Part shown: piece after piece, positions 5,623-7,045 of the stretch
Numbering within the stretch: the first letter of the stretch is position 1
Layout of the letters: the number at the start of each line of letters is the position of its first letter
DNA from: Vampirovibrio sp.
GTDB taxonomy: Bacteria > Cyanobacteriota > Vampirovibrionia > Vampirovibrionales > JAJTHC01
Reading direction: 5' to 3'
DNA: 64,000 nt
Assembly (NCBI GenBank): GCA_024998755.1
Contig: JACEUU010000002.1
Coordinates: forward strand, 3,511 to 67,510
The notes under the pieces: generated by a model
Seen by the model: the letters and a program-made list of their open reading frames with translations, nothing else
Told to the model about the DNA's origin: nothing
The model's database searches: none
Position numbers and translations under genes: made by a program

Positions 5623-5900
5623 TGGATGGCGTAAAGACTTTATTATACTCTATTAATTTTTAAGCTTGCGTTTGTAATTGATACACACTAAACGATTAAA
5701 TAGCGTACCAACCAGTAGGAACGACCATCGCGTTTGCTCTGCAGTCGTCGATGCGTTCCGTCCACCAAAGGAGCGAAAAAAGCATCCCCCCGTCAGTGCC
5801 CTTGTGGCATAGGGGGGTGTTTTTTCGGGGGTTTTTAGGGGCTTGCCCCTGAATTTGTGGGGGGTGTCGGGGGGTGCCCAAACAGGCATCCCCTTATGTG

Positions 5901-6068
5901 TTGGTAGAACAAAACGGTGCTAGTCGATCGTCCATTCCCCTCGGCTCCAAACAACCGATTGTCAGCAAGATCACTAGCACCGTTTTACAAGGGATGCCAT
6001 TTGAACAGATGCCCGAACTCTAACGTTCGTACCATAAGGCTAAATCCAAATCCCTATTTTTCTACCAA
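5901..6068 (+). ncRNA. Predicted IS110 bridge RNA (target-binding and donor-binding loops)
   Basis: Two stem/internal-loop/stem domains whose loop segments match both IS junctions (see findings); exact RNA ends unknown. Confidence 0.8.
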
Positions 6069-6081
6069 AGGAAATCCTACC

Positions 6082-7005
6082 ATGAAAACCGTCGGCATAG
6101 ATGTCTCAAAATCTACCCTAGACATCTGCTATCTCAACAACCAAAGCCCCCAATTCTCTCAGTGCCAAAACCAAGAAACGGACATTGAACAATTGGTTTT
6201 GGCACTGAGAGAATTCGCCCCCACCAAAATAACCCTAGAAGCCACAGGTGGCTAGGAAAAACCACTCTACCTAGCACTCAAAGTAGCCCAACTACCCGTT
6301 GTCAAAGCAAACCCAAGACAAGTAAGAGACTTCGCCAAAGCCTGCGGCATCCTAGCCAAAACCGACAAGCTAGACGCAAAAGTGCTAGCCCACTACGCTC
6401 GAGTAATCCAACCCCAAGAAACCGACTTCCTACCACCCCAAGCCTTGGTTGAACTGGCTCGGCACCAAGAACAAACAACGCAAGCCCTAGCAACGCTCAA
6501 AACGCAAGCCCACCAAGCCACAGACCCCTTCGTTATAGCCGATTTAGCCGCCCAGTGTGAAGCCTTAAAACAACGGCTTTCAGCCATTGTAGTGGAATGG
6601 AAACGAAGAATTGCGTTAGACCCATCGATTCAAAGCAAGCAAGAATGCTTGGAGACGGTTGCTGGTGTTGGGTTTAAAACCAGTGTGGTGCTGTTGGCTT
6701 GTTTGCCTGAATTAGGTTGTTTGGGTAGGGGGAAAATAGCCTCGCTGGTGGGCGTTGCTCCGAAGAATCGGGATAGTGGTGCTTGGCGGGGTAAGCGGTG
6801 TTGTTGGGGTGGGAGATCTGGTGTCCGTCGGTTGTTGTATATGGCGGTGTTGAGTTCGGTGCGGCATGATGAGCGGTTGAAGGTGTTTTATGAGCGATTG
6901 CGGGGTGTGGGAAAGCCTGCTAAAGTGGCGTTGGTGGCTTGTATTCGGAAGTTGTTGACTATTTTGAATGCGATGGTTCGAGATCACTTAAAAGCCACTG
7001 CTTGA
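6082..7005 (+). pseudogene. IS110 DEDD recombinase with one premature stop
   Basis: MKTVGIDVSK...LEATGG*EKPLY...KTDKLDA...RDSGAW; TAG at 6253-6255 sits where EATGGY is usual, and the frame continues into ORF 6382-7005. Confidence 0.9.
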
Positions 7006-7045
7006 CACAGATGCTGACAAACCAACCAGCGAAAAGCGTTAGCGG

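What the first reader, a model, noticed from the sequence alone, without database searches (positions are those of the whole stretch)
5885..7020. IS110 element with a bridge RNA readable from sequence: four guide segments match its own junctions
Seen: the non-coding leader folds into two stem/internal-loop domains. Domain 1 has a 14-bp stem AAAACGGTGCTAGT/ACTAGCACCGTTTT and inner stem TCGG/CCGA. Its left loop ends TCCCCT (5936-5941), identical to left flank plus core (5889-5894); the three more distal bases mismatch. Its right loop TTGTCAG (5959-5965) is the reverse complement of core plus right flank CTGACAA (7014-7020). Domain 2 has inner stem CGAAC/GTTCG. Its left loop ACAGATGC (6005-6012) is identical to the element right end (7007-7014), and its right loop CATAAG (6033-6038) is the reverse complement of CTTATG (5893-5898). 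Established: this is the LTG/RTG/LDG/RDG logic of IS621-type bridge recombination with a CT core. Inference: donor ACAGATG-CT-TATG, target GCATCCC-CT-GACAA, and a compact ~307 aa ortholog that may be revivable by repairing one codon.
Basis: partly seen in the sequence, partly recalled or inferred. Interest (0 to 1): 0.85.

Follow-up and report, generated by a model that had tools for sequence, protein, structure and literature searches.

The report
IS110 element with readable bridge RNA
This is an ordinary but very clean example of an IS110-family jumping gene whose own guide ("bridge") RNA spells out both its ends and its insertion site; this copy carries a stop codon, while intact sister copies sit elsewhere in the same genome.

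Summary
The element is an IS110-family insertion sequence of 1119 bp plus one CT core. It has a 187-nt non-coding left end, a 307-codon DEDD/Tnp recombinase gene and an 8-nt right end. The genome holds 13 full copies (97.7-100% identical), all at the same site inside a ~290-bp MITE. At least 18 unoccupied MITE copies still carry the exact site TCCC-CT-GACAA, which fixes the boundaries to the base. The leader folds (z = -6.8) into the two internal-loop domains of a bridge RNA. Across 39 related leaders 19 of 21 stem pairs show compensatory change. Loop-to-flank matches occur far more often with an element's own flanks than with swapped flanks (both guides at least 6 nt: 22 of 46 versus 0.44%). 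An 88%-identical copy in a sister species changed both target guides together with its flanks. TAG at 6253 is derived and present in 9 of 13 copies. Four copies carry TAC (Tyr) and are intact, so no repair is needed. The window copy also has a weakened -10 box. Verdict: interpretation supported; a new member of a known kind (IS621-type bridge recombination); moderate-to-low interest. Side observations are spread of the nonsense lineage and a lineage-specific 23-bp hairpin inside the coding region.

The parts
5869..5894 (+). Target hairpin of the host MITE. Its 3' arm is the left target (TCCC) and it ends with the left copy of the CT core (5893-5894).
   Evidence: 10-pair stem reported; the 32-nt flank folds at -19.1 kcal/mol, z = -3.48. 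The same hairpin precedes the empty sites.
5895..6081 (+). Left end (LE): 187-nt non-coding leader that encodes the bridge RNA.
   Evidence: Fold z = -6.77. It aligns to the leaders of 38 relatives, with 91.1% of cells paired and 19 of 21 pairs compensatory.
5905..5910 (+). Predicted -10 box. It reads TAGAAC in this copy and TAGAAT in 10 of 13 copies and in the outgroup. It is preceded by TGG at 5902-5904, an extended -10.
5911..5986 (+). Target-binding domain. Outer stem 5911-5929 with 5969-5986; inner stem 5941-5944 with 5955-5958.
5936..5941 (+). Left target guide (LTG), TCCCCT: four left-target bases plus the core.
   Evidence: Identical to 5889-5894. The position-wise match to the element's own flank extends 4-5 nt beyond the core in the family.
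5959..5965 (+). Right target guide (RTG), TTGTCAG: reverse complement of the core plus GACAA. The following C5966-A5967 are complementary to the donor TG just left of the core, the handshake position.
   Evidence: The handshake is assigned by reading against passages of PMC11208158.
5999..6045 (+). Donor-binding domain. Outer stem about 5999-6003 with 6041-6045; inner stem 6014-6018 with 6025-6029.
   Evidence: Window-specific U-A and A-U pairs replace the family's C-G and G-C pairs.
6005..6012 (+). Left donor guide (LDG), ACAGATGC: the right end of the element plus the first core base.
   Evidence: Identical to 7007-7014. The same 8-mer logic was found in 56 of 85 family elements.
6033..6038 (+). 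Right donor guide (RDG), CATAAG: reverse complement of the core plus TATG. The following G6039 is complementary to target C at -1, the handshake position.
   Evidence: CAAGG is nearly invariant in relatives.
6082..7005 (+). Recombinase gene of 307 codons. In this copy it is interrupted by TAG at 6253-6255 (codon 58).
6253..6255 (+). Derived nonsense codon TAG. It is present in 9 of 13 copies; 4 of 13 copies and the outgroup read TAC (Tyr).
   Evidence: No suppressor tRNA among the 40 tRNAs.
6152..6215 (+). Perfect 23-bp hairpin with an 18-nt loop inside the coding region (codons 24-45). It is specific to this lineage.
7002..7007 (+). TTGACA, the predicted -35 box at the right end. It overlaps the stop codon and pairs with the -10 box only in the circular form.
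   Evidence: in print for IS621 (passage of PMC11208160).
7006..7013 (+). Right end (RE), 8 nt after the stop codon.
7014..7020 (+). Right copy of the CT core plus the right target GACAA, in the MITE.

Best explanation
Bases 5895-7013, plus one of the two flanking CT dinucleotides, are one copy of an IS110-group insertion sequence. It moves by bridge-RNA-guided recombination of the IS621 type.

The 187-nt left end encodes an RNA with two internal loops. The first loop specifies the insertion site TCCC-CT-GACAA through LTG TCCCCT and RTG TTGTCAG. That site is the 3' arm and foot of a G+C-rich hairpin in a ~290-bp MITE. The second loop specifies the joined ends of the excised circle, ACAGATG-CT-TATG, through LDG ACAGATGC and RDG CATAAG.

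A 307-aa recombinase would form the tetramer that exchanges strands at the CT core. It has a RuvC-like DEDD domain, a coiled coil and a Tnp domain with the catalytic serine.

Circularisation is predicted to place TTGACA (right end) 18 nt upstream of TAGAAT (left end). This creates a strong promoter that starts transcription at the foot of the first stem.

The family is, or recently was, active in this genome: there are 13 near-identical copies and 4 intact genes. The window copy cannot make recombinase because of TAG at codon 58, and it has a weakened -10 box (TAGAAC). It can move only if recombinase is supplied by the intact copies.

**Shown:** anatomy, boundaries, target, conservation and covariation of the RNA, and guide/flank covariation.
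**Inferred:** transcription of the RNA, the circle and its promoter, catalysis, and supply in trans.
For: - **Copies and boundaries.** There are 13 full copies, all between ...CCC-CT and CT-GACA.... The motif CCCCTGACAA occurs 38 times against 3.3 expected, nearly all behind the same hairpin. Eighteen empty MITE sites carry the exact TCCCCTGACAA.
- **Protein.** PF01548 plus PF02371; NF033542 at 189 bits against a cut-off of 140. PDB matches are ISCro4 at 3.9e-27 and IS621 at 4.1e-24 over residues 3-298. D7, E53, D95, D98 and S232 are invariant in 23 homologues. They align to IS621 D11, E60, D102, D105 and S241.
- **RNA structure.** Fold z = -6.77. In 39 leaders, 91.1% of cells pair against 33.8-46.6% when partners are slid. 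Nineteen of 21 pairs are compensatory and 0 of 500 shuffles reach the observed values.
- **Guides, sister species.** In the 88% aa-identical copy the LTG became CACCCCCT, equal to its flank. The RTG became TGTTAAG, the reverse complement of its flank CTTAACA. The donor loop and the element ends stayed the same.
- **Guides, family.** LTG of at least 6 nt in 27 of 46, RTG of at least 6 nt in 35 of 46, both in 22 of 46. Swapped flanks gave 6.1%, 3.9% and 0.44% of 2032 pairs. Position-wise match is 0.83-0.92 at right positions +1 to +5 against 0.25-0.37 swapped.
- **Promoter.** TTGACA-18-TAGAAT with TG, 11 of 12 matches, appears in the predicted circle junction of 10 of 13 copies. No + strand promoter-like site was found in the integrated window copy.
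- **Published mechanism.** Passages of PMC11208160 and PMC11208158.
Against: - No direct evidence of the RNA. Public runs are held as contigs only, and the RNA-library contigs that match lie in the coding region, not in the leader.
- No circle junction was seen.
- Rfam 15 gave no bridge-RNA match; only chance-level microRNA-model hits fell on hairpins.
- The exact LTG match is short (6 nt including the core). Position -5 of the loop (T5935) mismatches 12 of the 13 occupied sites.
- The window copy has TAG and a C at the last -10 position, so this particular copy may be inert.
- The 46 family elements include several near-duplicates from the same genomes, so they are not 46 independent events.
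- 39 of the 85 elements were dropped before the count. In 29 no right-end/loop 8-mer followed by CT was found. Ten more lacked a left-end motif at the expected distance or enough flank.
Confidence: 0.93

Rival explanations
1. The TAG lineage did not transpose after acquiring the stop. Instead the stop, with its linked change at 6284, spread among pre-existing intact copies by gene conversion. On this reading the nine TAG copies say nothing about mobilisation in trans.
For: Pairs of variable sites show all four combinations: 6369 with 6255, and 5910 with the 24-bp deletion. That indicates exchange between copies or recurrent mutation. The three linked sites 6255, 6284 and 6300 lie within 46 bp, a plausible conversion tract.
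Against: Nine of 13 copies would have had to be converted in the same direction. The TAG form is also the only form of this stretch in the deepest DNA run laid (X1, one contig at depth 63.2, no other letter at 6255).
Confidence: 0.3
2. The whole family in this genome is a fossil. The copies are relics of a past burst and none moves today. The intact reading frames simply have not yet decayed.
For: Nine of 13 copies have a stop, 3 of 13 an in-frame 24-bp deletion and 3 of 13 a -10 change. A 35-nt left-end remnant exists. No circle junction was seen in contigs.
Against: Ten copies are at least 99.4% identical to the window copy. Four genes are intact with all catalytic residues. All guides are invariant in the 13 copies. 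Eighteen exact target sites remain empty. An independent metagenome contig carries an intact 99%-identical copy at the same MITE site.
Confidence: 0.15
3. The leader is only a cis-regulatory 5' UTR of the transposase mRNA. Site choice is made by the protein, and the loop/flank identities are coincidence or a by-product of inserting into a repeat.
For: Within this genome the guides cannot be tested, because all 13 copies share both guides and target. No RNA data cover the leader.
Against: Loops and flanks change together between species and across 46 family members, while the stems keep pairing through compensatory change. The homologous IS621 RNA is shown experimentally to guide recombination (passages of PMC11208160).
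Confidence: 0.02
4. TAG at codon 58 is read through (suppressed or recoded), so the nine TAG copies still make full-length recombinase.
For: The TAG form is the majority in the genome (9 of 13) and in one metagenome run.
Against: ARAGORN finds 40 tRNAs and none has a CUA anticodon. The ancestral codon is an ordinary TAC. Nothing in the calls suggests an altered code.
Confidence: 0.03

Closest known systems
IS621 (Escherichia coli), the founding bridge-RNA recombinase (Durrant et al. 2024, PMC11208160; Hiraizumi et al. 2024, PMC11208158; passages read)
   Same: - Same domain order and the same five catalytic residues.
- Long non-coding left end encoding an RNA with a target-binding and a donor-binding internal loop.
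[quoted passage not shown]
- CT core, included in all four guides.
- Handshake positions complementary to the non-cognate partner.
- -35 box in the right end.
- The target lies in a repeated, hairpin-forming element.
   Different: - The proteins align over their full length but only distantly (phmmer E 4.1e-24).
- 307 aa against 326 aa.
- RTG of the core plus 5 nt, where the paper's analysis of natural sites uses a four-base RTG. LTG of the core plus 4-5 nt, where it uses nine bases.
- Donor ACAGATG-CT-TATG.
- Target in a MITE of a Vampirovibrionales-like bacterium rather than an E. coli REP (the REP statement is recalled, not from a call).
- A 23-bp hairpin inside the coding region.
The clade of IS110 elements with donor ACAGTTG-CT-TGTAT, found here in Dehalococcoidia, Gemmatimonadales, Nitrospira, Gammaproteobacteria and cyanobacterial genomes (loci L045-L124)
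   Same: 43-49% protein identity. The leader is alignable, with the same stems and loop layout. The guide lengths are the same. The -35-like hexamer sits directly before CAGTTG at the right end (by eye).
   Different: The window lineage has a changed donor (A for T in the LDG, TATG for TGTA in the left end). The stems of its donor domain are rebuilt with A-U pairs. It also has the coding-region hairpin, which none of the 83 relatives has.
ISPpu10 of Pseudomonas putida, with a target-encoded stem-loop as a second specificity determinant (bioRxiv 10.64898/2026.03.19.712850; abstract and outline read)
   Same: All insertions lie in copies of one conserved repeat. A G+C-rich stem-loop sits immediately 5' of the paired target. 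Here the values are -19.1 kcal/mol for the window flank and -18.7 for the sister-species flank.
   Different: Whether the hairpin contributes to recognition here is untested. Most distant relatives of this clade have no such hairpin (7 of 45 flanks with z below -2).
IS1111-group elements and seekRNA (named in passages of PMC11208160 and in the abstract listing of PMC13604230)
   Same: Same protein family and the same RNA-guided logic.
   Different: According to PMC11208160, IS1111-group elements have short left ends, long right ends and long subterminal repeats. This element has a 187-nt left end and an 8-nt right end, so it belongs to the IS110 group.

Membership tests
IS110 family (IS110 group) bridge recombinase element | N-terminal RuvC-like DEDD domain | tested here: met
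   PF01548 at 4.6e-23 over residues 4-146. D7, E53, D95 and D98 are invariant in 23 homologues and align to IS621 D11, E60, D102 and D105.
IS110 family (IS110 group) bridge recombinase element | C-terminal Tnp domain with the catalytic serine followed by glycine | tested here: met
   PF02371 at 1.2e-14 over residues 188-271. S232-G233 are invariant and align to IS621 S241-G242.
IS110 family (IS110 group) bridge recombinase element | Curated family model above its cut-off | tested here: met
   NF033542 'IS110 family RNA-guided transposase': 189.2 bits against a cut-off of 140.
IS110 family (IS110 group) bridge recombinase element | Site-specific insertion at a 2-nt core that is present once in the empty site and on both sides of the element | tested here: met
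   Thirteen occupied sites and at least 18 exact empty sites.
IS110 family (IS110 group) bridge recombinase element | Long non-coding left end and short right end (IS110 group as opposed to IS1111 group) | tested here: met
   Left end 187 nt, right end 8 nt. The criterion comes from a passage of PMC11208160.
Bridge RNA | Two stem-loops, each with an internal loop, conserved with compensatory changes | tested here: met
   (19 of 21 pairs compensatory; 0 of 500 shuffles).
Bridge RNA | First loop: 5' side identical to the left target plus core; 3' side complementary to the core plus right target; both covary with the flanks | tested here: met
Bridge RNA | Second loop: 5' side identical to the right end plus core; 3' side complementary to the core plus left end | tested here: met
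   A right-end/loop 8-mer followed by CT was found in 56 of 85 family elements. The RDG match is short (core plus 4 here, CAAG in relatives), in line with the discontiguous RDG pairing described for IS621.
Bridge RNA | Handshake guides pair with the non-cognate DNA at position 7 and not with the cognate one | tested here: met
   By reading: C5966 faces donor G and not target C; G6039 faces target C and not donor G. The rule comes from passages of PMC11208158. Functional relevance is untested.
Bridge RNA | Match to a curated RNA family model | tested here: not met
   No bridge-RNA hit in Rfam 15 at E up to 10. Whether Rfam 15 holds such a family was not established, so this says little.
Bridge RNA | The RNA is actually transcribed and bound by the recombinase | not testable with these tools
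   Runs are held as contigs only, and no RNA-library contig lies on the leader.
IS110 family (IS110 group) bridge recombinase element | Circular intermediate with a junction promoter | tested here: inconclusive
   Promoter predicted from sequence in 10 of 13 copies, but not in the window copy. No circle junction appears in the contigs of four runs, which cannot show rare forms.

The most novel reading that the evidence does not exclude
The nine TAG copies are a natural non-autonomous lineage that keeps a perfect bridge RNA and perfect ends but no recombinase, and that has out-multiplied its four autonomous parents by using their enzyme in trans. It would be a 'guide-only' parasite of a bridge recombinase. 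In addition, the lineage-specific 22-23-bp hairpin inside codons 24-45 is kept between two species by a compensatory C>T / G>A change that alters two amino acids. It may be a functional RNA element, for example a double-strand RNase site that uncouples the bridge RNA from the recombinase message or throttles recombinase synthesis.
Probability: 0.3. Interest if true: 0.5.

Novelty: new member of a known kind. Interest (0 to 1): 0.3.

Why it matters
The finding adds no new principle. Bridge RNAs of IS110 elements were described in 2024 and predicted for thousands of elements.

Its value is as a very clean natural case.
- The boundaries are exact, fixed by many empty sites.
- A sister-species copy was 'reprogrammed' by nature in both target guides.
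- It is a compact 307-aa enzyme with natural intact alleles.
- The target is a hairpin in a MITE.
- Defective and intact copies coexist in one genome, which could be used to study supply of recombinase in trans and regulation.

It also shows that a reader without tools can recover all four guides of such an element from sequence alone.

Tried and rejected
- **Rfam.** A scan of 5500-7400 at E up to 10 gave only microRNA-model hits on hairpins, far below their gathering scores. A scan of an empty MITE copy gave nothing. The whole window gave only one tRNA.
- **First attempts that failed.** A first translation was in the wrong frame and was repeated correctly. A first pairwise alignment with the sister copy failed because a typed start motif was not found and was repeated by coordinate.
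- **Left ends of relatives.** Finding them from the RDG alone failed: the exact RDG match is only about 4-5 nt, so the candidates were mostly spurious. It was replaced by the conserved left-end motif CTT[GA]T.
- **Public runs.** All 24 runs listed are held as contigs. In the four laid:
  - no joint of the 'goes back' kind (circle or tandem) appeared;
  - the two 'skips' in X2 are simply empty MITE copies;
  - the RNA-library contigs covered 6388-6606 (X17) and 6662-6812 (X18) but not the leader.

  These absences prove nothing, and the RNA contigs do not prove transcription.
- **Target hairpin as a family rule.** Rejected: only 7 of 45 distinct left flanks fold with z below -2.
- **Segmental duplication.** This was considered for the two 100%-identical copies and rejected. 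Identity outside the element ends after 150 nt on the left (within the MITE) and 25 nt on the right.
- **Photosynthetic cyanobacterial host.** Rejected: no Photo_RC match in a 94%-complete genome.
- **Metagenome scan.** It returned only one close relative (L126); the other 23 loci are distant and were not analysed.
- **Not available.** Supplements of the papers are closed, so I could not check whether this element is already among the published predicted bridge RNAs.
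Full report
**What is in the sequence.**
- The reading frame runs from ATG 6082 to TGA 7003-7005 and is interrupted by TAG at 6253-6255.
- The 188-nt stretch 5895-6082 folds at -57.1 kcal/mol against -33.9 +/- 3.4 for 200 shuffles (z = -6.77). 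The fold has two domains, each with an outer stem, an internal loop and an inner hairpin.

**Copies, boundaries and target.**
- The window lies in a genome of 2.49 Mb in 3 contigs, 43% G+C. It holds 13 full-length copies that are 97.7-100% identical to the window copy. There is also one 35-nt left-end remnant.
- All 13 lie between ...CCC-CT and CT-GACA....
- The motif CCCCTGACAA, which is the site without the element, occurs 38 times against 3.3 expected. Nearly all occurrences sit behind the same G+C-rich hairpin.
- A stricter pattern finds 18 empty sites with the exact 11-mer TCCCCTGACAA followed by the repeat's right arm, and 22 genome-wide.
- The insertion is therefore 1119 bp plus one CT.
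- The site belongs to a dispersed repeat of about 290 bp in roughly 75 copies, with terminal inverted repeats of about 24 bp. That makes it a MITE.
- The left target is the 3' arm of a 10-pair hairpin (-19.1 kcal/mol, z = -3.5).
- In the window the right part of the MITE is cut off near 7040 by an IS630-family element.

**The protein.**
- An intact copy gives a 307-aa protein. It carries PF01548 plus PF02371 and scores 189 bits against the NCBIfam model 'IS110 family RNA-guided transposase', cut-off 140.
- It aligns over residues 3-298 to the solved ISCro4 (3.9e-27) and IS621 (4.1e-24) recombinases.
- D7, E53, D95, D98 and S232-G233 are invariant in an alignment of 23 homologues. They align to the IS621 residues D11, E60, D102, D105 and S241-G242. 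The paper reports that mutating D11, E60, D102, D105 or S241 abolishes recombination (passages).
- The stop at codon 58 falls just after E53, so a TAG copy cannot make the enzyme. No tRNA with a CUA anticodon exists among the 40 found.

**The RNA in the family.**
- A protein search found thousands of homologues. A scan of one genome per species gave 80 loci with 43-49% identity in many phyla. A search of the host's order gave an 88%-identical copy in a sister species, plus three distant copies.
- Of 43 distinct leaders I aligned 39. I left out L046 and L060 (long or uncertain left ends) and L053 and L115 (near-duplicates).
- RNAalifold predicts the same two domains.
- On that structure 91.1% of 811 cells pair, against 33.8-46.6% when partners are slid by 1-3 columns. 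Nineteen of 21 pairs have compensatory changes, and 0 of 500 shuffles reach any of the five measures.
- The window lineage rebuilds the donor-domain stems with U-A and A-U pairs where relatives have C-G and G-C.

**Guides and flanks change together.**
- In the sister-species copy the donor loop and the element ends are unchanged. The first loop changed from TCCCCT to CACCCCCT, equal to its own left flank. The 3' side changed from TTGTCAG to TGTTAAG, the reverse complement of its own right flank CTTAACA.
- For the family I examined 85 elements (83 relatives, the window copy and the sister copy).
  - In 29 no 8-mer shared by the right end and the leader and followed by CT was found; some contigs end there.
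  - Ten more lacked the left-end motif at 140-290 nt from the start codon or had too little flank.
  - That left 46, which include several near-duplicates from single genomes.
- With each element's own flanks, the longest exact match anchored on the core was:
  - at least 6 nt for the LTG in 27 of 46;
  - at least 6 nt for the RTG in 35 of 46;
  - at least 6 nt for both in 22 of 46.

  With flanks swapped between loci the figures were 6.1%, 3.9% and 0.44% of 2032 pairs.
- Position by position (36 of 39 aligned rows had enough flank):
  - the RTG follows the flank at +1 to +5 (0.83-0.92 against 0.25-0.37) and not beyond;
  - the LTG (32 rows could be anchored) follows it at -1 to -5 (0.91, 0.91, 0.84, 0.78, 0.56), against 0.73, 0.43, 0.32, 0.30 and 0.30 with swapped flanks, and not beyond.
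- T5935 (position -5) mismatches 12 of the 13 occupied sites, so the effective site is TCCC-CT-GACAA.

**Handshake positions (read against the paper).**
After the RTG comes C5966-A5967, complementary to the donor TG just left of the core and not to the target CC. After the RDG comes G6039, complementary to the target C at -1 and not to the donor G. This is the arrangement that the structural paper reports as favourable (passages). In relatives the corresponding C and G are nearly invariant.

**Predicted junction promoter.**
- TTGACA lies at 7002-7007 and overlaps the stop codon. TAGAAC lies at 5905-5910 and is preceded by TGG.
- In a circle the spacer would be 18 nt.
- With the majority and ancestral T at 5910, the junction scores 11 of 12 with an extended -10 in 10 of 13 copies. 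The three copies with C, the window copy among them, fail the criterion.
- No + strand promoter-like site precedes the leader in the integrated window copy.
- For IS621 the paper states that the -35 box lies in the right end (passage).
- This part is inference from sequence.

**State of the copies.**
- Nine of 13 copies have TAG and 4 have TAC. Three have an in-frame 24-bp deletion at 6477-6500 between short direct repeats. All four guide segments are invariant.
- The sister copy shows that TAC, T5910, C6284 and the undeleted form are ancestral. The TAG copies are therefore a derived lineage that now occupies nine different MITE copies.
- Either it kept transposing with enzyme from the intact copies, or the stop spread by gene conversion. 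Some site pairs show all four combinations, so exchange between copies does occur.
- An independent metagenome contig carries a 99%-identical intact copy at the same MITE site.

**Host and habitat.**
- The nearest named relatives of the host's ATP synthase beta subunit are Vampirovibrionales and Melainabacteria genomes assembled from metagenomes, at 76-81% identity. No photosynthetic reaction-centre gene was found in the 94%-complete genome.
- Twenty run records from 15 studies hold the element or part of it, 15 of them at least half of its sampled words. By their labels they come from freshwater, lake or other aquatic metagenomes, or carry the plain label 'metagenome'.
- The host is not a listed pathogen, so ordinary bench tests can be proposed.

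**Comparison and verdict.**
Every defining feature of an IS110-group bridge-RNA element that can be tested from sequence is met. Transcription, the circle and catalysis remain inferred. The mechanism and the family are in print (PMC11208160 and PMC11208158, passages read; bioRxiv 10.64898/2026.03.19.712850, abstract and outline read, for target stem-loops). This is a new member of a known kind.

**Worth a note.** Three things stand out: the success of the nonsense lineage; the perfect 23-bp hairpin inside the coding region; and the MITE hairpin as target. The coding-region hairpin is kept in the sister species by a compensatory change, and none of the 83 relatives has a hairpin longer than 13 bp in the first 260 nt of the gene.

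Noticed in passing
window 6152-6215: A perfect 23-bp hairpin with an 18-nt loop lies inside the recombinase coding region (codons 24-45), at -37 kcal/mol. The sister-species copy keeps 22 bp through a compensatory C>T / G>A change that alters two amino acids (S>F, R>K). Among 83 distant relatives the longest perfect hairpin in the first 260 nt of the gene is 13 bp. The function is unknown; it could be an RNase or attenuation site.
   Followed up: partly
window about 5670-5894 and 7016-7040; consensus from 40 genome copies: The insertion target belongs to a ~290-bp MITE present in about 75 copies in a 2.49-Mb genome. It has ~24-bp terminal inverted repeats, an internal terminator-like hairpin, the G+C-rich target hairpin and an internal direct repeat (ACCAACCAG...GGAACGAC.ATCG). 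It has no Rfam match. A second subfamily has a different right arm.
   Followed up: partly
window 7040-7909, minus strand: An IS630-family transposase (NF033545, 123 bits) is split over two overlapping frames (ORFs 7063-7875 and 7577-7909). It is inserted into the right part of the same MITE copy, giving MITE, IS110 and IS630 nested within 2.3 kb.
   Followed up: partly
G000:C1:178220-178254: A 35-nt remnant of the left end of the element sits at the usual MITE target. It is followed by unrelated A+T-rich sequence that resembles a MITE terminus, so it is a truncated fourteenth copy.
   Followed up: partly
window 6477-6500 (copies at G000:C1:393495, C1:777334, C1:910930): Three copies share an in-frame 24-bp deletion between short direct repeats (AACGCAAGCCC) in the coiled-coil region. 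All three also carry TAG.
   Followed up: no
window 5901-5909 with 6060-6068: In the minimum-energy fold, TTGGTAGAA just inside the left end pairs with TTCTACCAA next to the ribosome-binding site. The 5' half lies upstream of the predicted junction-promoter start, so only read-through transcripts from outside would form this helix. It may be a way to silence translation from external promoters.
   Followed up: no
G000:C1:1455581-1455640: In one MITE copy the 5' arm of the target hairpin has mutated so that its reverse strand also reads CCCCTGACA. That creates a second, inverted target-like site next to an occupied one.
   Followed up: no
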